A stretch of DNA of 64,000 nucleotides from Dehalococcoidia bacterium (GTDB taxonomy: Bacteria > Chloroflexota > Dehalococcoidia > DSTF01 > JALHUB01). The stretch is taken from the NCBI GenBank assembly GCA_030018455.1, contig JASEFU010000002.1, forward strand, positions 141,480-205,479, in the 5' to 3' direction. Under the pieces are notes generated by a model, which was given only the letters and a program-made list of their open reading frames with translations, was not told where the DNA came from and did not search any database. The first letter of the stretch is position 1. Each line of letters starts with the position of its first letter. Positions 914-47,821 of this stretch are shown here, piece after piece. Made by a program: the position numbers and the translations under genes.

Positions 914-1582
914 CTAGCGGCCGATGTCCACGAGGCCCGCCCGGATCGCGAGCTTCACCAGCTCCGTGCGGTTGTGGACTTCCAGCTTCTCCATGATGCC
1001 GGCGCGGTGGTTGGCGACGGTCTTCGCGCTGAGAAAGAGTAGGCCGGCTATCTCGCGGTTGCTCCGCCCCTCGGCCAGGAGCTTGAGGACTTCCTTTTCG
1101 CGGCCGCTCAGCCGGTCGAGCCGCCGCTCCACCTCGTCGTCCTCGCCTTCCCTGAGGTAGCGGTCGATCACCGCTTTCGTGACCGAGGGGTGCAGGAACG
1201 ATTCGCCGGCGTGCACGGCGCGAATAGCGGAGACAAGCTCGCTGCCGGCGGCCTTCTTGACGATGTAGCCGGCGGCACCCGCCTTGAGCATCTGGAGGAC
1301 GTACTCCTTGTTATCGTACTGGGTGAGGACGATTACCTTCGCCGGCGACCGCCGCTGACGCAGCTCCAGCGCCGCCTCCAGACCGCCCAGCCGTGGCATC
1401 GCGATGTCCATGAGCACAACGTCGGGGGCGAGCTGTACGGCCTTCTCCACCGCCTCCACGCCGTCCGCGGCGTCGCCCACCACCTCCACGTCGTCGTGCG
1501 CGTCCAGCAGCGCCCGGATGCCGTCGCGGAGGACGGCGTGGTCATCCGCTATCAGGACCCGAATCTTGCGCATCGTCGTCAC
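914..1582 (-). CDS. Two-component response regulator, NarL/LuxR family
   Basis: Receiver domain (IADDH...VVLMDIAMP...KVIVLT) + LuxR HTH ([35 protein letters not shown]). Confidence 0.9.
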
Positions 1583-3521
1583 TCTCCCTTTCGATGGGAA
1601 CGACGGCCCGCACCCGCGTTCCCTTGCCCGGCCGCGAGACGATCTCGATGCTGCCGCCGAGGAGCGTCGCCCGCTCTTCCATCCCCATCAGTCCCCAGCC
1701 GGAGTGTTTTCCCGACGCTTCGCCTGTTGCCGCGACGTCGAAGCCCTCACCGTCGTCCTCCACTTCGAGCGCGACGCGGCTTTCGTCGAACGTGAGCGTC
1801 AGGGCGACCGCGGAAGCGCGGGCGTGGCGCGCGACGTTGTTGACCGCCTCCTGCCCGATGCGGAACAGGGCGGTCTCCGCCTCGGCGGGCAGCCGGCGCT
1901 CCTTCCCTTTCACCTGCAGGCGGACGCGCACGCCCGCCGGTTGCAGGCGGCTCTCGGCGTACCAACGGAGACCGGCCACCAGCCCCAGGTCGTCGAGAAC
2001 GGACGGGCGGAGGTCGTAGATCAGCCCGTGGACGCGCTCCAGCGTCTCCACCGCCAGTTCCTTGAGCGACGCCAGCCTTCGCTGCAGCCCGGCCGCGCCG
2101 CTCTCCGACGTCAGGGAGGCGGTCTCCAGCCCGACGGCGAGGGCAGTCAGGCTCTGGCTCGTCTCATCGTGGAGCTCGCGGGCGATGCGCCGGCGCTCTT
2201 CTTCCTGAGCGCCGATCACCTTCTTGAGCAGACGGCCGCGCGCCGCCTCTTTTCGCTTCAGCTCCTCGTACAGGGCGGCGTTCTCCTCGGCGACCGCCCG
2301 CAGGCTATCGCGCGACTCCTCCAGCTCGCGCGTGCGCTCCCGGACGCGCAATTCCAGCTCGCGGCTCTGCGCCTGTATCGTTTCCAGCGATTCGCTGAGC
2401 TTGATCCGCATCACCTCGAAGACCATCGCCAGGTGGCCGATCTCGTCCCGCCCCAGGATGGGCACGCGCCTCGAGAGGTCGCCGGACGCTATCCTCTGCG
2501 CGGCGTCCGTCAGGGCCGCCACCGGCCGTGTGACGCTGCGTACGGTTGCCCAGCCGAAGAGCAGCGCGAACGAGAAGGCGCCGACGCCCAGCCACAATGC
2601 CCGCTCCTTGAGCCGACGCGCGGGGGCCAGCGCCTCATCCTCCGACTCGCGGATGAGCACTCCCCACGGCGCTGACTGAAGAGGAGCGAACGCCATCACC
2701 TCCGTCTCGCGCTCTTTCCCGTTTTCGGACTCGTGGCAGTCGTGGCAGGTGCCCGACGACGTCCGGTTCTCCTCGATGAGCGCGGCCACCTGATGACGGT
2801 GGTCCGTCGTTTCGAGCGTCTGGTCGGCGCGGGTGCTGGCGAGGATCGCCCCCTCGCCGTCCACGATCTGCGCGTAGCCGGTCTCGCTCAGCGACGCGAG
2901 GTATATGACCTCCTGAAGGTTGCTGCCGCTGAGGCCGATGTCGCCGCCGACCAGTCCGACGAGCTTGCCGCTGAGGTTGCGCACCGGCACCACCATCGAG
3001 ACGGCGGGTCCCCCGTCAGCCACGGCGGCGGTCAGACCGGACACGGCGCTCGCCCCGCTTTCGAGGGCGTCCGCCACGTGAGGGTTGGTGGAGATGTCTT
3101 TCCCCAGCACGGACGGCGTTTCGGGCTCGATCCACAGGAGGCGGCCGCTCGCATCGGTGAGATAGACGCCGCGGCTGAAGATGGTGCCGAAGAAGGCGCG
3201 GCGCAGCGCCCGCCGCTCCGGCTCGGGGTCGGCGTCCTCGAGGTCGAACCCATCGCCGAACGGGACTTCGTCCAGCGCCTCCAGGCTCTGGCGCACGACG
3301 TAGTCGACGTGGCCGCCGGTCGCCTCGGCGAGGGCGCGGCGCTCGTCAACGGAGCGGTCGATGCTCTCCGAGACGGCGAGCAGGCTGATGATGCTGAAGG
3401 CGACGAGTATAGCGACGATGCCGATGGTCACCAGAAGCATGATGCGCCACTGGAGGCTTCTCCTGATGATCCCGGGTCGGCCGCCTCGAGGGGTCTTGTC
3501 GCCGTCGAGCCCCTGGCCCAT
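1542..3521 (-). CDS. Sensor histidine kinase (HisKA_3/HATPase) with periplasmic sensor domain carrying a CxxCH heme-c motif
   Basis: 659 aa: TM, ~230-aa periplasmic domain, CHDCH (aa 259-263, nt 2733-2747) as only Cys pair, 2nd TM, coiled coil, H-box [13 protein letters not shown], HATPase_c. Confidence 0.85.
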
Positions 3522-3534
3522 CGCGAGTCCCCCG

Positions 3535-4317
3535 CTACCCGCCCGGCGGCTTCTCCGCTGTGCCGCCCGCAGCGGGCTCCGACGACAGGTGCGCGGGGAG
3601 CTCCTTGATGCCCATCAGGCGCATGTACTCGCGCAGGTGCTCCTCGATCATCCTTTCGCGCGATATCTTGCCGTTGATCATCGACTGGTCGAGAGGAAAC
3701 ACGTTCGGGCTGAAGACCACGCTGTAGAAGTGCCAGATGACGATGACCAGGAAGGCGAGCAGGGCTTCGCCGCTGTGCGTCTCCTTTGCCGCGGCCACAA
3801 ACTCGCCGGGGAGCACGCGCGTGACGTAGGTGGGAAACCAGAGCATGAGGCCGGTGGCGATCATAATGACGGCCCCGAATACGATCCCCCAGTACTCGAA
3901 GATCTGCCGGAAGTCGTAGCGGTCGAACTCCGGCCGGCGGGAGCTGAGGCCGACGGAGTAGCGCAGCCAGTCGAACGCATCGAGGAAATCGCGGGGCGTC
4001 GGTATCATCGAGGGAGTGAAGCGCTTCAGAGCAACGGACGCCGCTATCGCTCCCAGGTGGAAGCTGGACTCGAAGATGAAGAGGGTGGCGAAGATACGGT
4101 GGAAGAGGCGGACGTTATCGATGCCGCCGAGCGCGGAAATGACCCACAACGAAGGGGCGGCCTCGTGGAACTTCTGGGGCAGGCCCGTCGTGACAAGAGC
4201 AAGGAACGTGAACACGAGCACCCAATGCTCAAGCCGCTGCCCCAGGGTGAAGCGGAGGAACTCCTCCGGTTCCGGAACCTCGCGTATGCCCTCTCTGTGC
4301 GCCTCTGCCTTTATCAT
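3535..4317 (-). CDS. Di-heme b-type cytochrome, Ni/Fe-hydrogenase/formate-dehydrogenase gamma (HydC/FdnI) family, split CbcL-like b subunit
   Basis: 260 aa, 4 [24 protein letters not shown] pattern; homologous to C-terminal half of 5430..7292. Confidence 0.8.
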
Positions 4318-4329
4318 CTCGGCGTCCCC

Positions 4330-5433
4330 CTATCGATTGCGGGCCAGCCGCCACAGATCGACCATGATATACAGGACCAGCCCGCCGACCATGAAAGGAA
4401 TGAGAAAGCGGTAGTACGTCTTGACGAGGTATACCAGGGTCGCCTTGTCTAAGCTGGGCTCGTAGTGCGACAGCCACGCGGAAGGGAAGTTGACGGTGGC
4501 ATCCGGGTGGCACTTGCGACACGTGGTCAGCAGGTTCTCCTTTATGACGCGCGACTCGGGATCGTCCACGGCCTTGATGTCGTGGACGCCGTGGCAGTCG
4601 CTGCACACGGGCTGGTCGGGCCAGACGTCCGTCCCCTCCTTCTGGTAAAAGCCGACAGTCTTGCCGTGGAAATCGTCGAGGTACGTCTTGAGGACGTTGG
4701 AGGAGATACCGTATTTGTCCATCAGCTCCTTGTCGGCGTGGCAGCCGGCGCAGAGATTGAGCGAATCGAGCCGGAAAGAGGCGGTCGTAGCGCTGGGTAT
4801 GTTGTGGACGCCGTGGCAGGTTGTGCACACGGGCACGTCGGGGTTTTCCTCACGTAGAGCGGAGCCGTGGATGCTGGAGCTGTACGCCTCGTAAATGCCT
4901 TCGTGACATTTTGAGCACGCCTGGGCGATCTGCGTCCGTGATTCGCGGATCGGCGTGGCCGCGTGGGCGGTGTGGCAGTCGGTGCAAAGCGGGGCGTAGG
5001 TGAAGCCCTTCGAAAGCGCCTCGAAGTGCACGCTATCGAGGGTCAGCGTGTAGTTCTTGAAGTGGCAGCGCTTGCACAGCTCGTACTGCGCCTGGGAGTA
5101 CTCCCGTCGCCCGGAGACCTCCGGCAACGGGTGAGGGTAGCGGCGGTTCCGCTCGTGGCAATCGAGGCAGTTCAGCTTGTCGCCGTGGACGGAGCTGCGA
5201 TAGGCCTCTTCATTGAACGTGAGTGAAAGAGCATCGCCGTTGGGGAACGTCATCGCGATCTCAGGCCGCAGGTGGCAGCGCAGGCACGACGCGTTCGGGT
5301 CCTGGGCCGGCGGCGAGGGCGGCGGCGCGGACTGCGCGACCGGGGCCGCGCGCAAGAAGACCAGGCCAAGGGAGGCGGCAGCGCATGCGCCCAACAGCAG
5401 CCGCGAGAGCGCGCCCCGTTTCCGTCTGTTCAT
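4330..5433 (-). CDS. Nonaheme c-type cytochrome, signal peptide, C-terminal TM anchor (split CbcL-like c subunit)
   Basis: 9 CxxCH motifs (CLRCH, CLDCH, CKRCH, CTDCH, CSKCH, CTTCH, CAGCH, CSDCH, CRKCH); start overlaps upstream stop (ATGA). Confidence 0.85.
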   Translation of the reverse strand: MNRRKRGALSRLLLGACAAASLGLVFLRAAPVAQSAPPPSPPAQDPNASCLRCHLRPEIAMTFPNGDALSLTFNEEAYRSSVHGDKLNCLDCHERNRRYPHPLPEVSGRREYSQAQYELCKRCHFKNYTLTLDSVHFEALSKGFTYAPLCTDCHTAHAATPIRESRTQIAQACSKCHEGIYEAYSSSIHGSALREENPDVPVCTTCHGVHNIPSATTASFRLDSLNLCAGCHADKELMDKYGISSNVLKTYLDDFHGKTVGFYQKEGTDVWPDQPVCSDCHGVHDIKAVDDPESRVIKENLLTTCRKCHPDATVNFPSAWLSHYEPSLDKATLVYLVKTYYRFLIPFMVGGLVLYIMVDLWRLARNR

Positions 5434-7292
5434 GACCCGCCTCCCGCCGGCCCGAAAGCGTCGCTTTCCGCTCCGCGGGCACGGGCCGCCTGGTCGCCGG
5501 AGGAAGCCGCCCGCCGCTTTGCCGCCTCATCGATGGCCGCCAGCTCCAGCGGGTGCTCCTCGGCGTAGAGGCGGCGCTGCATCTTGCCGGTGAAGATCGA
5601 CCGGTTCAGGGGGAAGAAACGCGGGTTGAAGTGGACGAAGAAGAAGTGCACAACGAATATCCACAGCACGGCCAGCACCGCCTCGTCGCTGTGGGCGAGG
5701 AAAGCCACCGAGATCATGTCGCCGGGAAGGAAGCGCGCGGCCATCGTCGGGAACATGAGCATCAGCCCGGAGAGGCCTATCACCGGCATCCCCCAGAAGA
5801 TCGCCCAATAGTCGAACTTTTCCCGGTAGCTGAAGCGCCCGAACTTCGGCCGCTCCGACGAATGGCCGAACCAGAACTGCAGGTCCTGGAAGAAATCGGC
5901 GATATCTTTGGGCGCGGGAATCATCCAGATGGGCAGCGGCTTCTTCAACACCAGCGAACCGAAGGCGACGTACCCCAGGTGGTAGACGCAGTCCGCCAGC
6001 ATCACCAGCCCGGCGAAACGGTGGATGGCGCGGGCGCTATCCAGCCCTCCCCACGCGTCGATGAGCCAGCGGCTCGCGCCCCACTCGGAGAACTTCTGCG
6101 GCAGGCCGGTGAAGGCGAGGACGAGGAAGCAGGCCATCATCAGGAAGTGCTGCGCCCGCTGATGGACCTCGAAGCGAAGGATTTCCTGCGAGGGATGGGC
6201 CGAATCGAGACCTTGCGCCCCGGCGGGCCGATTTCCCGCCGGGTCGCCGGATGCGCCTGAGAGCGCGACATGCCGGTGGCCGCCGGCACCTCCGCCGACG
6301 CCGGGCCCGCCGGACGAGGGGCCTCGTCCGTCGCCATCGCCGTGGCCGTCGCCGCCGCCGCCGCGCCCCGTCAGCCAGCCGAACCCCTCGAGCCCGACCA
6401 TCAGCAGCCCCAGGCCGACCACCGATGTGGTGAGGATGAAGAAGAAGCGCTCGCCGTAGTAGACAAGCGGCGACTCGTCGGCGGAAGGCTCCTGGTGATA
6501 AGCGAGGCTGCGCGCGAAGCTCTCGTTCGCGTCGGAGTGGCAGCGGGCGCAAACGATCGCCAGGGTCGCCGCGCTGCGCACGGGCGACGTCCTGTCGTCC
6601 ACCCTCTTCGCGTCATGGCTGCCGTGACAGGTAGCGCAGGTGGCGGGACTAAGGGCGGAGAGGTCGGCCCGCGAGAGGCGGAGCGCTTTGGCGTGGGGGC
6701 TGCCCATGTAGGTCTCGAACACGTCCGTCTTCAGCCCGTACCGCGCCATCAGCGCCTCGTCGGCGTGGCACTTTCCGCAGGTGGCGGCCACGTTTTTTCG
6801 GTACACGGGCGACTGGGCCGACAGGACGGGCTGAATTGCATGGCCGGATCCGCCAGGATTGTGGCAATCGAGGCAGGTGGCGACGTGGGCGTCGGAGTGG
6901 ACGCTCCTCGCCTGGAGCGCCTGCTCTTGCCGGTGGCAGCGGCCGCAAAGCTCGATCACCGCCTGCCCCTCGATGCGGCGGCCGGCGTCGTCCTCGTCGT
7001 GGGTGGAGTGGCAGCTCGCGCAGTCGACCCCCTCATGCACGGAGGAGGCGAGCGGCGCCTCGTCCACGTACAGGCGGCGGCCGGGGTCGCTCTCGCTCAC
7101 CGGCGGGTTGTCGGCGTTGCCGTGGCAGCCGAGGCAGCCGCTGAGGTCGACGGCGCTCTCGCTCTTCGGCGGCTCGCCGACCTGGCTCCTGCTGGCGTAG
7201 ACGACAACGCCTATGCCCGCGAGCACCGCGCAGGCGACCATGAGTCCGAGAAGGTACGCGAGCGGCTTTCCCACAGACACTTTTCCATCCAT
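5430..7292 (-). CDS. CbcL-like fusion: heptaheme c-type cytochrome + HydC/FdnI-type cytochrome b
   Basis: 620 aa; 7 CxxCH, TM, Gly/Asp-rich linker (GGGGDGHGDGDGRG...), then 4-TM b-type domain paralogous to 3535..4317. Confidence 0.85.
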   Translation of the reverse strand: MDGKVSVGKPLAYLLGLMVACAVLAGIGVVVYASRSQVGEPPKSESAVDLSGCLGCHGNADNPPVSESDPGRRLYVDEAPLASSVHEGVDCASCHSTHDEDDAGRRIEGQAVIELCGRCHRQEQALQARSVHSDAHVATCLDCHNPGGSGHAIQPVLSAQSPVYRKNVAATCGKCHADEALMARYGLKTDVFETYMGSPHAKALRLSRADLSALSPATCATCHGSHDAKRVDDRTSPVRSAATLAIVCARCHSDANESFARSLAYHQEPSADESPLVYYGERFFFILTTSVVGLGLLMVGLEGFGWLTGRGGGGDGHGDGDGRGPSSGGPGVGGGAGGHRHVALSGASGDPAGNRPAGAQGLDSAHPSQEILRFEVHQRAQHFLMMACFLVLAFTGLPQKFSEWGASRWLIDAWGGLDSARAIHRFAGLVMLADCVYHLGYVAFGSLVLKKPLPIWMIPAPKDIADFFQDLQFWFGHSSERPKFGRFSYREKFDYWAIFWGMPVIGLSGLMLMFPTMAARFLPGDMISVAFLAHSDEAVLAVLWIFVVHFFFVHFNPRFFPLNRSIFTGKMQRRLYAEEHPLELAAIDEAAKRRAASSGDQAARARGAESDAFGPAGGGS

Positions 7293-7295
7293 CCT

Positions 7296-9722: not shown

Positions 9723-10274
9723 GTGATGTTTAGGCGGGGGCGCCGCTACTGCGCAGAGTTGCATCGCCTCACCAAGGAATACCGAGTTGAGGGCATCTCA
9801 GCCTCAGCCCGCAAGCTCATCGCGACACACCGGCGAATGCGCCGTCTGCCAGGAGCGGCGGCTACGGCTTGTTTCGGCCGAGAGTGTCCTGCGGTCGCTG
9901 GTTCCTCTGCCCCTCCTGCTCAAGAAGAGAACTGCCGAGACAGCGACCCAAGCGTGGCCTTTGGTCAGCGGCGGAGCGTCCGGAGCGAGTGGGGTCGGTG
10001 GCAGCTGGGTGCGGTTGTCTCGCAGTGGCGGCCTGGTACAATCGCAGAAGTACGTCCGCAACAACCTGCGCCAAATCCCCCTGTGCCGCCGGGAGCCCGT
10101 TCTGCACAATTCGACGTTCTGGGACCACGCTCCCGCATCGCGCGCCGCATGCATCGATGGCTTGTTACCAGCGCCGGGCCTGCAAGAGGAACGGTAGCTC
10201 GAAAAGCAGAGGGTCGGAGAGCTTTCAATACAAGAGGCCGGGTGAACCCCCGGCCTGACTGCGTCTACCGCATG

Positions 10275-27454: not shown

Positions 27455-27488
27455 ATGTTGCGTCCGCAGGGTGCGGCGCCAGGGGAGT

Positions 27489-27534
27489 GCAGAGGGGGCT
27501 TCCCCTCTGCTGGGCCTGCCTGCCGGCAGGCAGG
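27489..27534. repeat. GC-hairpin repeat locus A: GCAGAGGGG-GCTT-CCCCTCTGC + 20-bp palindrome CCTGCCTGCCGGCAGGCAGG
   Basis: Perfect 9-bp stem hairpin and perfect 20-nt palindrome, 35 nt after gatA stop. Confidence 0.8.
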
Positions 27535-27635
27535 TGGGAAGATAGACGTTGATGTTTCGGCGACCACGCCGACGCAGCTTGCAGGCACAAGTCTGATTCC
27601 GCTGTCGGACGCCGGAGACGACGAGGGAGGGAAAG

Positions 27636-28070
27636 ATGGAGCTGAATCCGGCGCAACAGATGCTCGCCAAGGGCTACCACTGATCGGAGTCCGTCCTCAC
27701 GGCCGTGTGCCGTGAACTCGGGGTCGAAAGCCCGCTTTTCCCGCGTATCGCCACCGCCTTCGCCGCCGGCATGGGACGCACCGGGGAGGTCTGCGGCGCC
27801 GTCGTCGGCGGCATCATGTGCATCGGCGTCGCCCACGGCCGCGACAAGAGCGACCAGCCGGACGACAAGGCCGTGCTGCTGACCCGCCGCTTCCTCAGCG
27901 CCTTCCGCGACGAGATGGGCGAGGTCCACTGCCGCGCCCTTACCGGCGTCGACTTCACGGTGGAGGAAGAGGTCCAGCGGTTCCGCACCTCTGACATACC
28001 TGTCAGGGTGTGCCTCCGCGCGGGCGGGCTCGCGTACGACCTCGCGCTCAAGCTGATACGAGAGGAGTAG
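27636..28070 (+). CDS. C_GCAxxG_C_C family redox protein, candidate selenoprotein (UGA 27681-27683 at position of first conserved Cys)
   Basis: ATG 27636 with GAGGGAGGG SD; MELNPAQQMLAKGYH-TGA-SESVLTAVCRELG...AFAAGMGRTGEVCGAVVGG matches GYNCAQ.../GFGGGMGRTG.CGA family pattern; ORF track supports 27705-28070. Confidence 0.55.
27697..27715 (+). promoter_or_regulatory. SECIS-like hairpin 13 nt downstream of UGA (UCACGGC-CGUGU-GCCGUGA)
   Basis: 7-bp stem, 5-nt loop containing GU, at canonical bacterial SECIS spacing. Confidence 0.4.
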
Positions 28071-28079
28071 CGGCGAGAG

Positions 28080-28304
28080 GTGGCGGAAGGCGGCCCCGTT
28101 CGCGTCGGGTGCTACTCCGGTGGACGCTACGGCGAGCGTCCACAATGGGTGGAGAGCGAAGGGCTGCGACGCAACGTCGTCAGCGTCGACGCGGAGCGCC
28201 GCCAGCCGGAGCGTCACGTGTTCGAGGTCACCCTGGAAGACAACGCGCGCATGGTCTTGTATTATTACCCGCATAAAGACGTGTGGCTGGGAGTTGAGAG
28301 ATGA
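28080..28304 (+). CDS. Small hypothetical protein (GTG start), co-oriented between C_GCAxxG gene and aminotransferase
   Basis: 74 aa; GAGAGGAG SD; stop overlaps aminotransferase start (ATGA). Confidence 0.4.
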   Translation: MAEGGPVRVGCYSGGRYGERPQWVESEGLRRNVVSVDAERRQPERHVFEVTLEDNARMVLYYYPHKDVWLGVER

Positions 28305-29509
28305 CCGATTACATTCACTGCGCCGACGGCACCCGTCGCGGCTACGTTTCGCGCCGCATCAACGCCATCGCGCCCTCGGGGATACGCCGCTTCTTCGATC
28401 TGCTGGCGGAGATGGACAACGTCATCTCCCTCGGGGTCGGCCAGCCCGACTTCGTGACGCCGGACATCATCCGCAACGCCGCCATCCGCTCCATCGAAGA
28501 GGGCGAGACGCATTACACGTCCAACTACGGCATCCTCCGGTTGCGCGAGGCGATCTCCCGCCACATCGAGCACCACTACGGCGTCTACTACGACCCGGCG
28601 ACGGAGATCATCGTGACCACGGGTGTGAGCGAAGGACTGAACATCGCCATGTCGGCGCTGGTCGACCTAGGCGACGAGGTCCTCGGCCCCGACCCGCACT
28701 TCGTGGCCTACCCGCCGGCCGTCGTCCTCGCCGACGGCGTCTTCGTCCCCATCCCCACGAACGATGCCAACGCCTTCAAGATCCGCGCCAGCGACATGGA
28801 AGAGGGCATTACGCCCCGCACGAAGGCCATAATCCTCGGCTACCCGGCGAACCCCACGGGAGCCGTCATGGAGCGCGACGATTTGCTGGCGGTGGCGGAG
28901 GTGGCCGAGAAGCACAACCTGTTCGTGATCTCCGACGAGATATACGACCGGCTGGTCTACGGCGGCCACAAACACGTCTGCGTCGCCTCCCTGCCCGGCA
29001 TGCGAGAGCGCACCGTCCTCCTTGGCGGCTTTTCGAAGGCGTACGCCATGACCGGCTGGCGCCTGGGCTACGTCGCCGCCCGCGCCGACCTCGTCGAGGC
29101 GATGATGAAGGCGCACCAGTACGTTATGATGTCGGCGCCGACGACCTCGCAGTACGCGGGACTGGAGGCGCTGGCGCACGGCGAAGAAGACGTGCGGGGC
29201 ATGGTCTCGGAGTACGACAGGCGGCGGCGGCTTATCGTCAAAGGTTTCAACGACATCGGGCTGAAGTGCTTCGAGCCGCGCGGCGCCTTCTACGCCTTCC
29301 CCTCGATCAGCGTCACCGGCCTCTCCGACGAGGCGTTCGCGGAGATGCTGCTCATGGAGGAAAAGGTGGCGGTGATACCGGGCTCCGCGTTCGGGGAGTG
29401 CGGCGCGGGGCACGTGCGGGCGTGCTACGCGCAGTCGTATGAGCTGATCGAGGAGGCGCTGGAGCGCATCCGCCGCTTCGTGGAGCGCCACAAGCACGGC
29501 GCGCGCTAG
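28301..29509 (+). CDS. Pyridoxal-phosphate-dependent aminotransferase, class I/II (aspartate aminotransferase family)
   Basis: 402 aa; PLP Lys region FSKAYAMTGWRLGY. Confidence 0.9.
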   Translation: MTDYIHCADGTRRGYVSRRINAIAPSGIRRFFDLLAEMDNVISLGVGQPDFVTPDIIRNAAIRSIEEGETHYTSNYGILRLREAISRHIEHHYGVYYDPATEIIVTTGVSEGLNIAMSALVDLGDEVLGPDPHFVAYPPAVVLADGVFVPIPTNDANAFKIRASDMEEGITPRTKAIILGYPANPTGAVMERDDLLAVAEVAEKHNLFVISDEIYDRLVYGGHKHVCVASLPGMRERTVLLGGFSKAYAMTGWRLGYVAARADLVEAMMKAHQYVMMSAPTTSQYAGLEALAHGEEDVRGMVSEYDRRRRLIVKGFNDIGLKCFEPRGAFYAFPSISVTGLSDEAFAEMLLMEEKVAVIPGSAFGECGAGHVRACYAQSYELIEEALERIRRFVERHKHGAR

Positions 29510-31283: not shown

Positions 31284-31751
31284 CTACATCCGCTCCGGCG
31301 CGGCGACGCCCATCAGCGACAGCGTCCGCCACAACGTGAGCCGCGCCGCCTCCACCAGCTTCAGCCGCGCCTTCGTCAGCGGAACGTCGTCCGTCACCAC
31401 CCGGCAGCGCTCGTAGAAGTCGTGGAAGGCGGTCGCCAGGTCGAGCGCGTAGTGCGGCAGGTGGTGGGGCGCCAGGTTGCGCGCTACCGCCTCCACGAGC
31501 TCGGGGAGGCGCAGCATCTTGCGGATGAGCGCCAGCTCCTGGGGCTGCGTGAGCAGGCGCGTGTCGCCGTCGCTGAAATCGATGCCGCGTTCGCGCGCCA
31601 GCTTGAGGATGCCTGCGATGCGGGCGTAAGCGTACTGAACATAGTACACGGGGTTCTCGGCGCTCTGCTGCTTCGCCAGCTCGAGGTCGAACTCGACGGT
31701 GGCGTCCGCCGAGCGCATGAGGAAGAGAAAGCGGCAGGCGTCCCTCCCCAC
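31284..31751 (-). pseudogene. argS: Arginine--tRNA ligase C-terminal (DALR anticodon-binding) fragment only
   Basis: 155 aa matching ArgS C-terminus (NPVYYVQYAYARI...DALR domain); no N-terminal catalytic domain upstream. Confidence 0.6.
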
Positions 31752-31948: not shown

Positions 31949-33421
31949 GTGACGGCGATGTCAGACAAGACCGCCCTCTCGGAGACCAGCGCCGGCAGTG
32001 ATCTCGAAGCCCTCTTTCGACCGCAGAGCATCGCGGTCGTGGGGGCTTCTTCAAACGTGAGGAGCCAGGGCTACGAGTACGTCGAAGGGCTCGTCAAGTT
32101 CGGATTCCCGGGCCCGATCTACCCCGTCAACCCCAAGCTCGACGAGTTGCTCGGCCTGAAAGCGTACCCGCGCCTTCAGGACATCCCCGGCGGCGTCGAC
32201 TTCGTGATTTCCGCCGTCCCCGCGAGCGCCGTCTTCGAACTCGTGGAAGGAGCGAAAGAGAAAGGGGTCAAGCTCATCCATTTCTTCACCGCCCGCTTCA
32301 GCGAGACCGGCCGCGCCGACGCCATCGAAATGGAGCGCGAGCTTCGGAAGAGAACGCAGGAAGCAGGTATCCGCGTCATCGGGCCGAACTGCATGGGACT
32401 GTATTACCCAAAGCAGCGCATCACCTTCGACCCCATGGTGCTGGAAGAGGAGCCCGGCAACATCGGCTTTCTATCGCAGAGCGGCAGCCACGCCTTCCGG
32501 GTCATCGGCAGGGGGAAGAACCGCGGACTGCGCTTCAGCAAGGTCATCAGCTACGGCAACGCCCTCGACTTGAATGAGGTCGATTTCCTCTACCACTTCG
32601 CCGATGACCCCGAGACGGAGATCATCGCGGCCTACATCGAAGGCCTGCGCGACGGCAAGCGCTTCTTCGAAGCGCTACGGTATGCGGCCTCCCGCAAGCC
32701 GGTGCTGGTGATGAAGGGCGGGCGTACCCCGGCCGGCCATGCCGCCGCCTCCTCACACACCGCAGCCCTCGCAAGCGAACGCTCGATATGGAGGGTCGCG
32801 GTCGAGCAGGCGGGCGCGCTCGAGGTCGCGAGCCTGAACGAGCTCATCGACCTGCTGGTGGCCTATCGCTGCGCGGGCCCGGTGAAGGGGCGGCGCGTCG
32901 CAGTGCTGGGCGGCGCCGGCGGCGGCACCGTCGAGGCGGCCGACCTCTGCGCCGAGGCCGGCCTTGAGCTAACGCCAGTTCCCCAGGAGATCAGGGAAGC
33001 CCTGCGCGACAAGCTCCCGCACGCTTGGGACTGGATCGGCAACCCGCTCGATGCGTCGATACTCGGCTGGGGGCCGCTGCGGGCGAACGAGATGGACATC
33101 CTGGGCATGATGGCGGCCCACCCCGCCTACGACGGCGTGCTGCTCAACTTCCACGTCGAGCGGGCGCTGCACCGCATGGGCCTGGAGAAGCTGCCCCCGG
33201 AAGCGATAGAGATGGTGGCGCGGCTGGGCAGGGACAACGATAAAGCGCTTGTCCTCGTCGTCGAGGAGCCGGAAGCGCGAGAGGAAGAGCGGGTGAGGGC
33301 TGTCCTCGAAGCGCGCGACCAGCTCGCGGCGGCGGGGCTCGCCGTCTACCCCGACATCGAGCGCGGCATCCGGGCGATGGGACGCTACGTGTCGTACGAG
33401 ATGCAACGCGCGTCCCGCTGA
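31949..33421 (+). CDS. Acyl-CoA synthetase (ADP-forming) / CoA-binding domain protein (succinyl-CoA synthetase-like alpha domain)
   Basis: CoA_binding + Succ_CoA_lig-like pattern (AVVGASSN..., GPNCMG). Confidence 0.8.
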   Translation: MTAMSDKTALSETSAGSDLEALFRPQSIAVVGASSNVRSQGYEYVEGLVKFGFPGPIYPVNPKLDELLGLKAYPRLQDIPGGVDFVISAVPASAVFELVEGAKEKGVKLIHFFTARFSETGRADAIEMERELRKRTQEAGIRVIGPNCMGLYYPKQRITFDPMVLEEEPGNIGFLSQSGSHAFRVIGRGKNRGLRFSKVISYGNALDLNEVDFLYHFADDPETEIIAAYIEGLRDGKRFFEALRYAASRKPVLVMKGGRTPAGHAAASSHTAALASERSIWRVAVEQAGALEVASLNELIDLLVAYRCAGPVKGRRVAVLGGAGGGTVEAADLCAEAGLELTPVPQEIREALRDKLPHAWDWIGNPLDASILGWGPLRANEMDILGMMAAHPAYDGVLLNFHVERALHRMGLEKLPPEAIEMVARLGRDNDKALVLVVEEPEAREEERVRAVLEARDQLAAAGLAVYPDIERGIRAMGRYVSYEMQRASR

Positions 33422-47359: not shown

Positions 47360-47821
47360 TCAGGCCTGCTCTCTGTGGCCCTTGTGCAGGTCGTGGCCGC
47401 GCCTTTCTTCCACGCGGTGCATCGCGCGGCCCTTATCGGGGTGCGGGTCCAGTATGACGCCGTATATCTCGCGGCCCTCGTGTCCCTCCGGCAGGTGCTC
47501 TGTTATCGGAAGACCTTCCGAATTACAGAACAGCATTCAGTGGCAGTACTTGAAGCGCTGCATCTCCTCGCAGGGACACGACCACACGCTCGACTTCGCC
47601 TCCTCCGCCTTGTCCTCGTAGAAGTTGCAGGGGCAAAGCGGGCGGCCCACCTCGTCGATGTGTTTGGCGAGACCGATTACGAGGTACTCCGTGATCGCGG
47701 GGTCGGGGTGCAGGTAAGCGCCGGCCTTTTCGGCGTAGCGTTCCGCGAACCGTCGCATCTTCTCGACGTTCGCCGCCGACGCCTGCATGCGGTCTTTCTC
47801 CGTCGGGCGCTCGATGGCCAA
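47360..47821 (-). CDS. Ferredoxin-thioredoxin reductase catalytic-subunit-like protein, candidate selenoprotein (UGA 47537-47539 replaces 2nd Cys of CHC motif)
   Basis: PLCPCNFYEDKAEE...WSCPCEEMQRFKYCH-TGA-MLFCNSEG aligns to FTR-C PLCPCRHYEDK...WNCPCVPMRERKECHCMLF; ORF continues 58 codons to TGA 47360-47362. Confidence 0.55.
47506..47521 (-). promoter_or_regulatory. SECIS-like hairpin 15 nt downstream of UGA (UCGGAAG-GU-CUUCCGA; apical GGUC)
   Basis: 6-7-bp stem with GGUC in apex, minus-strand mRNA. Confidence 0.4.

What the first reader, a model, noticed from the sequence alone, without database searches (positions are those of the whole stretch)
27636..28070. Second candidate selenoprotein: C_GCAxxG_C_C family protein with UGA at the first conserved Cys
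A strong SD (GAGGGAGGG) and ATG at 27636 open a frame encoding MELNPAQQMLAKGYH. A TGA follows at 27681-27683, and the frame then continues (SESVLTAVCRELG...AFAAGMGRTGEVCGAVVGG...), matching the C_GCAxxG_C_C redox-protein family. The TGA falls at the conserved N-terminal Cys of that family (GYNCAQ...). A 7-bp stem with a 5-nt GU-containing loop starts 13 nt after the UGA. With the FTR-like gene, this makes two independent in-frame TGAs, each precisely at a redox-active Cys. That is unlikely for random nonsense mutations and argues for genuine Sec usage.
Basis: partly seen in the sequence, partly recalled or inferred. Interest (0 to 1): 0.8.

Follow-up and report, generated by a model that had tools for sequence, protein, structure and literature searches.

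The report
Selenocysteine C-GCAxxG-C-C protein gene, Dehalococcoidia
The in-frame TGA is real and almost certainly encodes selenocysteine in a small C-GCAxxG-C-C redox protein of a Dehalococcoidia bacterium, but this protein family is already listed as containing selenoproteins, so it is a correct, ordinary find.

Summary
Observation confirmed. ATG 27636 follows a GGAGG ribosome-binding site, TGA sits in frame at 27681-27683, and the frame runs to TAG 28070. The 144-aa read-through product is a C_GCAxxG_C_C protein, with the TGA at the family's first invariant Cys.

Interpretation supported. At that aligned position, 61 related loci from independent genomes and metagenomes carry TGA and 47 carry Cys. 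In 42 of 46 distinct TGA forms, a start codon lies exactly 15 codons upstream. The N-terminal peptide evolves like coding sequence.

A hairpin 13 nt after the UGA (7-bp stem, loop CGUGU) has an intact 4-bp core in all 44 distinct Sec forms but only 1 of 7 Cys forms. It shows compensatory changes and frozen synonymous sites. TGA still ends 14 of 38 genes in the window, so there is no code reassignment.

A second selenoprotein gene lies at 47360-47788 on the minus strand (FTR-like, CHU motif, GGUC-loop hairpin).

No selA, selB, selD or tRNA-Sec lies in these 64 kb. Their presence in the genome could not be tested.

Novelty is low. NCBIfam calls the family "(seleno)protein", and a 2022 review lists it and FtrB as selenoprotein families. 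New side leads: fold similarity to the iron-centre domain of split-Soret cytochrome c, and a conserved unknown 74-aa neighbour.

The parts
27623..27631 (+). Ribosome-binding site GAGGGAGGG (core GGAGG 27626-27630)
   Evidence: Read directly. A GGAGG-like motif sits at the same distance before the start codon in most of the 46 distinct Sec-type orthologues, while the rest of the upstream DNA is unrelated.
27636..28070 (+). Coding sequence of the selenoprotein: 144 aa, C_GCAxxG_C_C family, Sec at residue 16. The conserved Cys are C25 (subfamily only), C53 (in GEVCGAVVGG), C99 and C126.
   Evidence: Codon-position GC for 27684-28070 is 0.71/0.47/0.90.
27681..27683 (+). UGA read as selenocysteine (codon 16), at the first invariant Cys of the family
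   Evidence: 61 loci carry TGA and 47 carry Cys at the aligned position. Among the 32 closest loci tabulated from species-representative genomes, 22 carry TGA and 10 Cys.
27687..27725 (+). SECIS-type hairpin inside the coding sequence. Lower stem 27687-27693 with 27719-27725; upper stem 27697-27703 with 27709-27715; apical loop 27704-27708 (CGUGU). The loop starts 20 nt after the UGA.
   Evidence: The 4-bp core is intact in 44 of 44 distinct Sec forms and 1 of 7 Cys forms. Compensatory pairs and frozen synonymous sites are seen.
27705..27707 (+). GTG that gene callers take as the start of a truncated 121-aa product. It is the Val24 codon and lies inside the SECIS apical loop.
   Evidence: ORF list. 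About 45 database homologues (P0001-P0050 minus the 12 full-length ones) are 110-130 aa and cover only 76-86% of the query, starting at or just after this point.
28080..28304 (+). ORF74: a conserved 74-aa protein of unknown function, 9 nt after the selenoprotein stop. Its end overlaps the start of the next gene.
   Evidence: No Pfam or NCBIfam hit. No specific fold match.
28301..29509 (+). Class I/II PLP-dependent aminotransferase, last gene of the apparent three-gene unit
   Evidence: Synteny.
47360..47788 (-). Second selenoprotein gene in the window: ferredoxin-thioredoxin-reductase catalytic-subunit-like protein, 142 aa, motif CPC-X16-CPC-X8-CHU. UGA at 47539-47537. Hairpin 47532-47496 with a GGUC apical loop.
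   Evidence: (PF02943, E = 6.6e-27).

Best explanation
This is a genuine bacterial selenoprotein gene. Translation starts at ATG 27636. UGA 27681-27683 is decoded as selenocysteine, most likely because a SelB-type elongation factor carrying Sec-tRNA(Sec) binds the hairpin at 27687-27725 (upper stem 27697-27715, loop CGUGU), which lies in the coding sequence just downstream. Translation then continues to TAG 28070.

The product is a 144-aa all-helical cytoplasmic C_GCAxxG_C_C protein. Sec16 replaces the first of the family's four invariant Cys; the other three are Cys53, Cys99 and Cys126.

By analogy with the only solved relative of the fold, the N-terminal domain of split-Soret cytochrome c (PDB 1H21), these four residues most likely form one redox site. 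That site is either a non-haem iron (Fe-S type) centre or a selenylsulfide/thiol centre. Sec would give it a lower pKa and higher reactivity than the Cys orthologues have.

The gene is a vertically inherited core gene of one Dehalococcoidia clade, in the order gatC-gatA-[this gene]-ORF74-aminotransferase. Sec and Cys versions have replaced each other within that clade.

Shown here: the coordinates, family membership, the Sec/Cys pairing, coding constraint on both sides of the UGA, hairpin conservation and the synteny.

Inferred: SelB/tRNA-Sec dependence, actual selenium insertion, and the chemistry of the site.
For: 1. Family and position. PF09719 scores 85.7 bits (cut-off 27), with the match starting at residue 14. 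TIGR01909 'C-GCAxxG-C-C family (seleno)protein' scores 64.7 bits (cut-off 47.4). In a diverse 41-sequence alignment, with U written as C in the loci-derived rows, the only invariant Cys columns are the one holding the TGA and three others.

2. Sec/Cys pairs. Full-length homologues have Cys where the window has TGA. Across 160 fetched loci, 61 have TGA and 47 have Cys at that position. Among the 32 closest loci from species-representative genomes, 22 carry TGA and 10 Cys, 5 of those Cys forms in the close clade.

3. The stretch upstream of the TGA is translated.
- 42 of 46 distinct Sec forms have ATG or GTG exactly 15 codons before the TGA, preceded by GGAGG.
- Pairwise differences by codon position are 0.345, 0.224 and 0.489, against 0.656 in the 30 nt upstream.
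- In 97%-identical relatives with a different upstream neighbour, homology to the window begins at the ribosome-binding site.

4. SECIS.
- The core TGGCCGTG[T/A]GCC is invariant in 44 distinct Sec forms. This includes the third codon positions of Ala and Val, which do vary in the 7 Cys forms.
- The 4-bp core stem is intact in 44/44 Sec forms and 1/7 Cys forms.
- My 13-pair structure is 81% paired, against at most 44% when the partners are slid.
- Pair types are GC:8/CG:7 at columns 21-37, UA:31/UG:3/CG:1 at 23-35, and UA:17/UG:6/GC:3 at 13-45.
- The window itself carries ACG...CGU where the others have CUG...CAG. The amino acids change (Thr/Arg for Leu/Gln) but the pairing is kept.
- Distant Sec lineages have different hairpins at the same distance. 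L119 has CUGAC-CGUGU-GUCAG. Syntrophaceae have a stem with a GGUCGG loop.

5. UGA is otherwise a stop. It ends 14 of 38 Pfam-supported genes in the window.

6. A second, unrelated gene in the window has UGA at a redox Cys, followed by a textbook GGUC-loop hairpin.

7. Lineage. The window comes from an NCBI Dehalococcoidia MAG (ORF74 = MDI6857515.1). [quoted passage not shown]

Against: No tRNA-Sec, selA, selB or selD was found in the 64-kb window or in 1.66 Mb of related loci. The machinery is therefore assumed for this genome, not shown.

No Rfam family matches the hairpin, and RNAalifold alone supports only the 4-bp core. The upper-stem pair at columns 21-37 is unpaired in 20 of 35 sequences.

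Much of the hairpin's sequence conservation overlaps a conserved peptide (AVCQE), and the sequences are phylogenetically related. The shuffle statistics therefore overstate independence.

Nothing here shows that selenium is inserted.

The functional model rests on fold similarity at 16% identity and on my recollection of what the 1H21 iron centre is. I could not read model coordinates to check that the four residues cluster.
Confidence: 0.9

Rival explanations
1. The TGA is a true stop. Either the gene is a pseudogene or the real protein is the 121-aa product starting at GTG 27705, and the 15-codon ORF upstream is not part of it.
For: Automatic gene callers choose this model. The exact 121-aa product and about 45 similar truncated entries are in the protein collections. 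A GGAG lies 15 nt before GTG 27705.
Against: The truncated product would lack the first invariant Cys and the first helix of the domain; the Pfam match begins at residue 14. The TGA, the start codon 15 codons upstream, the ribosome-binding site and the upstream peptide are conserved in dozens of independent loci down to 46% identity, with a coding pattern of substitutions. GTG 27705 lies in the apical loop of the conserved hairpin. Cys orthologues are full length.
Confidence: 0.02
2. The UGA is recoded, but not to selenocysteine. One route is SelB-dependent insertion of Cys from a tRNA with a UCA anticodon, which I recall from the literature for some bacteria. Another is near-cognate read-through, for example by Trp.
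For: Sequence analysis cannot tell which residue is inserted. Cys orthologues function in sister genomes. No tRNA-Sec was seen.
Against: The conserved hairpin at the canonical distance, the placement at a redox Cys, and a second gene with the same features are the signature of the standard Sec system. The family and the lineage are documented Sec users. Trp or another residue at an invariant Cys position would probably inactivate the site.
Confidence: 0.05
3. UGA is reassigned genome-wide to a sense codon, or the TGA is a sequencing or assembly error.
For: None beyond the presence of two in-frame TGAs.
Against: TGA terminates 14 of 38 well-supported genes in the window. Only two in-frame TGAs were identified, both at redox Cys positions. 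The same TGA occurs in independent assemblies from many samples.
Confidence: 0.01

Closest known systems
C-GCAxxG-C-C family (seleno)proteins (Pfam PF09719, NCBIfam TIGR01909), listed as a prokaryotic selenoprotein family in Zhang et al. 2022 (PMC9312934, example WP_012158890.1)
   Same: Same domain over its whole length and the same four invariant Cys positions. Sec is at the first of them, as in the Syntrophaceae forms recovered here (...HUSQAVL...). A hairpin follows directly after the UGA.
   Different: This is the Dehalococcoidia subfamily. It has an extra conserved Cys25, a fixed gatC-gatA-X-ORF74-aminotransferase neighbourhood, and its own hairpin sequence (CUGGC/CGUGU/GCCAG type; CACGGC...GCCGUG in the window). 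I did not verify where the Sec lies in the review's example protein.
N-terminal non-haem iron domain of split-Soret cytochrome c, Desulfovibrio desulfuricans (PDB 1H21; Abreu et al. 2003, J Biol Inorg Chem 8:360)
   Different: Only 16% identity. 1H21 is a 247-residue dihaem cytochrome, whereas this is a stand-alone 144-aa protein with no haem motif. The match is below Pfam-level significance. That the 1H21 centre is a [2Fe-2S] cluster bound by four Cys is my recollection of a paper the library does not hold.
Bacterial SelB/SECIS recoding as in E. coli fdhF (bSECIS model of Zhang and Gladyshev 2005; own knowledge)
   Same: The stem-loop lies inside the coding sequence immediately 3' of the UGA. 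The apical loop starts 20 nt after the UGA, within the 16-37 nt range I recall for the model, and contains G and U. The Sec/Cys orthologue pairs are typical.
   Different: The loop is CGUGU rather than GGUC. No bulged U was established. SelB and tRNA-Sec were not observed for this genome. There is no Rfam match.
FtrB (ferredoxin-thioredoxin reductase catalytic subunit) selenoproteins, CxU type (Zhang and Gladyshev 2008, PMC2398784; NCBIfam NF041072)
   Same: This is the companion gene at 47360-47788 (minus strand). It has the motif CPC-X16-CPC-X8-CHU and matches PF02943 at E = 6.6e-27. It is independent evidence that this genome decodes UGA as Sec.
   Different: It is a different protein family from the finding. 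It has a single Sec, not the double-Sec form modelled by NF041072 (43.7 bits against a cut-off of 160).

Membership tests
C_GCAxxG_C_C (PF09719 / TIGR01909) | Profile match above the curated cut-offs | tested here: met
   PF09719: 85.7 bits against 27, residues 14-111. TIGR01909: 64.7 bits against 47.4, residues 14-136. Both with U written as C.
C_GCAxxG_C_C (PF09719 / TIGR01909) | Four invariant Cys positions: C...CGAxxG...C...C | tested here: met
   U16 (TGA), C53 in GEVCGAVVGG, C99 and C126. These are the only invariant Cys columns in the diverse alignment A6, where U was written as C in the loci-derived rows, and they are invariant in A1 and A2.
C_GCAxxG_C_C (PF09719 / TIGR01909) | Small stand-alone protein of about 140 residues | tested here: met
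   144 aa from ATG 27636 to TAG 28070. Cys orthologues are 143-151 aa.
Bacterial selenoprotein gene (SelB/SECIS-dependent UGA recoding) | In-frame UGA aligned with Cys in homologues (Sec/Cys pair) | tested here: met
   61 TGA and 47 Cys at the same aligned position.
Bacterial selenoprotein gene (SelB/SECIS-dependent UGA recoding) | Protein-level conservation on both sides of the UGA, with a conserved start upstream | tested here: met
   a start codon lies 15 codons upstream in 42 of 46 forms, and substitutions follow position 3 > 1 > 2; homology begins at the ribosome-binding site.
Bacterial selenoprotein gene (SelB/SECIS-dependent UGA recoding) | Stem-loop immediately 3' of the UGA with G in the apical loop, conserved in Sec forms | tested here: met
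   The distance and loop criteria are from my own knowledge of the bSECIS model. There is no Rfam hit.
Bacterial selenoprotein gene (SelB/SECIS-dependent UGA recoding) | selA, selB, selD and tRNA-Sec present in the same genome | not testable with these tools
   They are absent from the 64-kb window and from 164 related loci. The rest of the source MAG (contig of 360,744 bp) could not be fetched. There is lineage-level support only.
Bacterial selenoprotein gene (SelB/SECIS-dependent UGA recoding) | Other selenoprotein genes in the same genome | tested here: met
   FTR-like gene with CHU and a GGUC-loop hairpin at 47360-47788, minus strand.
Bacterial selenoprotein gene (SelB/SECIS-dependent UGA recoding) | Selenium actually incorporated at the UGA | not testable with these tools
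   Needs mass spectrometry or 75Se labelling.
Split-Soret cytochrome c iron-centre domain (PDB 1H21) | Same fold | tested here: met
   [not shown]
Split-Soret cytochrome c iron-centre domain (PDB 1H21) | The four conserved Cys/Sec positions are the ligands of the non-haem iron centre | tested here: inconclusive
   HMM alignments place 1H21 Cys residues at the CGAxxG motif and, weakly, at the fourth position. The first and third positions, and the ligand assignment itself, could not be checked. The paper is not held and no coordinates were available.

The most novel reading that the evidence does not exclude
Sec16 may be a direct ligand of a non-haem iron (Fe-S type) centre formed with Cys53, Cys99 and Cys126, as in the homologous domain of split-Soret cytochrome c. 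That would make this a natural selenolate-ligated iron centre in a small cytoplasmic protein. The protein would be a core gene of a Dehalococcoidia clade, working together with the uncharacterised 74-aa protein that always follows it.
Probability: 0.25. Interest if true: 0.55.

Novelty: new member of a known kind. Interest (0 to 1): 0.22.

Why it matters
The practical value is for annotation. This gene and about 45 database relatives are stored as 110-130-aa fragments that start inside or just after the SECIS loop. The redox-active first residue is therefore missing from the protein collections for a whole Dehalococcoidia clade.

Biologically, the gene adds one more well-supported selenoprotein, with an FtrB-like companion, to a lineage already known to be selenoprotein-rich. 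The clade offers a clean natural Sec/Cys series in fixed synteny, with 44 distinct Sec and 7 Cys forms. That series could be used to study Sec-to-Cys exchange and SECIS decay.

The family's function is still unknown. The fold link to the split-Soret cytochrome iron centre and the tightly linked 74-aa partner are testable leads to it.

Tried and rejected
- Sel machinery. ARAGORN and Rfam on the window found only tRNA-Gly. Pfam on about 40 window ORFs found no SelA, SelB or SelD. ARAGORN on 30 related loci found no tRNA-Sec. tblastn against 1.66 Mb (window plus 164 loci), using E. coli SelA, SelB and SelD sequences written from memory, gave only two weak GTPase hits. This is uninformative about the whole genome.
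- Rfam at a permissive E-value on both hairpin regions gave no SECIS family.
- Single-sequence folding of 76 nt gave z = -0.11, not significant.
- I tried to retrieve split-Soret cytochrome sequences with the 35-aa aligned peptide. The Abreu 2003 paper is not held, and other papers citing it gave no detail.
- Exact look-up of the full-length products with X at the Sec position found nothing, and U is not accepted. I could not establish how the NCBI record annotates the gene.
- My two crude scans for further in-frame TGAs by GC3 were too insensitive. They missed even the two known cases, so I make no claim about other selenoprotein genes in the window.
The model is therefore of orthologue P0005, not of the window protein.

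Full report
**1. What is in the sequence**

- GAGGGAGGG lies at 27623-27631.
- ATG is at 27636-27638.
- An in-frame TGA is at 27681-27683 (codon 16).
- The frame then continues to TAG 28068-28070.

The translation is MELNPAQQMLAKGYH*SESVLTAVCRELGVESPLFPRIATAFAAGMGRTGEVCGAVVGG....

With the stop written as Cys, the 144-aa product matches two family models.
- Pfam PF09719 C_GCAxxG_C_C: 85.7 bits against a cut-off of 27. The match starts at residue 14, upstream of the TGA.
- NCBIfam TIGR01909: 64.7 bits against a cut-off of 47.4. Its current name is "C-GCAxxG-C-C family (seleno)protein".

The window has 66% G+C. The stretch 27684-28070 has the codon-position GC pattern of its real genes, 0.71/0.47/0.90.

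**2. Is the TGA read through?**

A search of the large protein collection returned two kinds of relatives.
- Full-length proteins of 143-151 aa that read M-[ED]-LNPAQQLMA+RYH-C-[SA]E[SA]VL.
- Many entries of 110-130 aa that cover only 76-86% of the query and begin at or just after the Met/Val that follows the TGA position.

I fetched the DNA of 160 related loci from species-representative genomes and from metagenomes and read the frame upstream of each.
- At the aligned position, 61 loci carry TGA and 47 carry a Cys codon.
- Among the 32 closest loci tabulated from representative genomes, 22 carry TGA and 10 Cys. Five of those Cys forms are in the close clade.
- Those genomes are almost all labelled Dehalococcoidia or "Chloroflexia".

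The truncated database entries are therefore gene-calling artefacts of Sec genes.

In 46 distinct Sec-type sequences:
- A start codon (40 ATG, 2 GTG) lies exactly 15 codons before the TGA in 42. The other four start one to three codons earlier.
- A GGAGG-like motif precedes the start.
- The 14 codons in between differ pairwise by 0.345, 0.224 and 0.489 at codon positions 1, 2 and 3. The 30 nt upstream of the start differ by 0.656.

That is the signature of a translated peptide.

In 97%-identical relatives from other samples the upstream neighbour is different. Similarity to the window begins at the ribosome-binding site.

The alternative start at GTG 27705 is therefore rejected. It is the Val24 codon.

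**3. The recoding signal**

- Upper stem: 27697-27703 pairs with 27709-27715 (7 bp).
- Apical loop: CGUGU at 27704-27708.
- Lower stem: 27687-27693 pairs with 27719-27725.

On its own it is weak evidence in GC-rich DNA. The z-score is -0.11 for 76 nt and -2.12 for the 50 nt from the UGA.

The comparative evidence is strong.
- In 44 distinct Sec forms the core TGGCCGTG[T/A]GCC never varies. This includes the third positions of the Ala and Val codons.
- The seven Cys forms of the same clade do vary there (GCT; GTT or GTC).
- The 4-bp core stem is intact in 44 of 44 Sec forms and 1 of 7 Cys forms.
- RNAalifold recovers the 4-bp core.
- The 13-pair structure taken from the window is 81% paired across 35 sequences, against at most 44% when the partners are slid by 1-3 columns.
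- Pair types are GC:8/CG:7 at columns 21-37, UA:31/UG:3/CG:1 at 23-35, and UA:17/UG:6/GC:3 at 13-45.

The window itself is the informative outlier. It has ACG...CGU (Thr22, Arg26) where the others have CUG...CAG (Leu, Gln). Two amino acids changed together in a way that keeps two base pairs.

More distant Sec lineages have different hairpins at the same distance from the UGA.
- L119 has CUGAC-CGUGU-GUCAG.
- Syntrophaceae have a stem closed by a GGUCGG loop.

The loop begins 20 nt after the UGA and contains G and U. This fits the bacterial SECIS model as I recall it. No Rfam family matches. I think this is unsurprising for a SECIS embedded in a coding sequence, but I did not check which bacterial SECIS models Rfam holds.

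Two caveats apply. The hairpin overlaps a conserved peptide, and the sequences are related, so the shuffle controls overstate independence. The contrast between Sec and Cys forms at synonymous sites is the cleanest argument.

**4. Rival readings**

- Genome-wide reassignment of UGA is excluded. TGA ends 14 of 38 Pfam-supported genes in the window.
- Sequencing error and pseudogene are excluded by the recurrence of the TGA in independent assemblies.
- What cannot be excluded from sequence is that something other than Sec is inserted, for example Cys through a SelB-dependent route. I give this about 5%.

**5. The machinery**

The window holds one tRNA gene (tRNA-Gly) and no SelA, SelB or SelD. 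Neither do the 164 related loci, 1.66 Mb with the window.

The window is a 64-kb piece of a Dehalococcoidia MAG. ORF74 and the aminotransferase are identical to NCBI MDI6857515.1 and MDI6857516.1, on a 360,744-bp contig. The rest of that genome was out of reach.

Indirect support comes from two sources.
[quoted passage not shown] It has the motif CPC-X16-CPC-X8-CHU, with UGA at the last Cys, and a long hairpin closed by a GGUC loop.

One further hint is only suggestive. The one MAG with two paralogues among the fetched loci has TGA in both (L010 and L019). Another genome appears to have Cys in both (P0011 and P0015, both reported on a 558,870-bp contig).

**6. What the protein is and does**

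The gene sits in a fixed neighbourhood across the clade: gatC, gatA, this gene, a 74-aa ORF, and a class I/II aminotransferase.
- The 74-aa ORF (28080-28304) starts 9 nt after the selenoprotein's stop.
- Its end overlaps the aminotransferase start.

This is therefore a vertically inherited core gene in which Sec and Cys have exchanged.

No member of the family has been characterised. The literature search found only incidental mentions.

An AlphaFold model of the 66%-identical Cys orthologue P0005 is confident (pLDDT 93.4) and consists of eight helices.
- Foldseek finds nothing in the PDB.
- Broader family profiles also hit 1H21_A at the GxxCGAxxGA motif (E = 0.003-0.004), and weakly at the fourth conserved Cys.

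[quoted passage not shown] I recall that the centre is a [2Fe-2S] cluster held by four Cys, but the paper is not in the library.

My working model is that U16, C53, C99 and C126 form one redox site. The site is either an iron centre or a selenylsulfide/thiol centre, and Sec raises its reactivity. This part is inference.

**7. Comparison with what is known, and verdict**

The family is already known to include selenoproteins.
- The NCBIfam model name says so.
- The 2022 review by Zhang and colleagues lists "C-GCAxxG-C-C family protein (pfam09719)" and "Ferredoxin-thioredoxin reductase (FtrB), CxU" among prokaryotic selenoprotein families, citing the 2008 Global Ocean Sampling study.
- The 2008 paper describes the FTR selenoproteins.

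The finding is therefore correct and well supported, but it is a new member of a known kind. I score interest at 0.22.

What goes slightly beyond the catalogue:
- The scale of the misannotation in Dehalococcoidia.
- The amino-acid-level covariation that keeps the SECIS paired.
- The fold link to the split-Soret iron centre.
- The conserved unknown partner ORF74.

Noticed in passing
It is a 142-aa ferredoxin-thioredoxin-reductase catalytic-subunit homologue (PF02943, E = 6.6e-27) with the motif CPC-X16-CPC-X8-CHU. An 8-bp plus 6-bp hairpin closed by a GGUC loop follows the UGA. It lies antisense inside a long stop-free stretch that precedes a solute-binding-protein gene.
   Followed up: partly
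[not shown]
   Followed up: partly
window 27705; proteins P0001-P0050: About 45 database entries for this subfamily are 110-130-aa fragments that start at or just after the Val/Met codon following the UGA. This is a systematic truncation of Sec genes by gene callers. In the window, the chosen GTG lies in the SECIS apical loop.
   Followed up: yes
L007 (CAWIGJ010000002.1), about 10046-10100: This Cys-form orthologue still has the CCAG arm and 4 of the 5 stem pairs of the SECIS core (ATGGCTGTGTGCCAG). This would fit a recent Sec-to-Cys conversion followed by hairpin decay.
   Followed up: no
L161 1129-1986 compared with window 27455-27620: In a 97%-identical relative, a 285-aa DUF3800 gene lies between gatA and the selenoprotein gene. 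The window has only a 180-nt spacer there.
   Followed up: no
window 31284-31751 (minus strand): This ORF encodes only the C-terminal DALR anticodon-binding domain of arginyl-tRNA synthetase (PF05746, E = 1.7e-32). No catalytic domain lies upstream before the next gene at 31949. It may be a gene fragment or a stand-alone domain.
   Followed up: no
window, 38 Pfam-supported genes: Stop-codon usage is TAG 20, TGA 14 and TAA 4. I would have expected TGA rather than TAG to be the commonest stop in a 66% G+C genome.
   Followed up: no
window 917-7295 (minus strand): A cluster of two multihaem cytochrome c genes (paired CXXCH motifs, MtrC/MtrF-like domains), one of them fused to and one followed by a cytochrome b561-type membrane protein. 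It lies next to a Cache/HAMP histidine kinase and a LuxR-type response regulator.
   Followed up: no
L010 and L019 (both from MAG JBAUEL01): Two paralogues of the gene in one Dehalococcoidia MAG both carry TGA at the Sec position.
   Followed up: no
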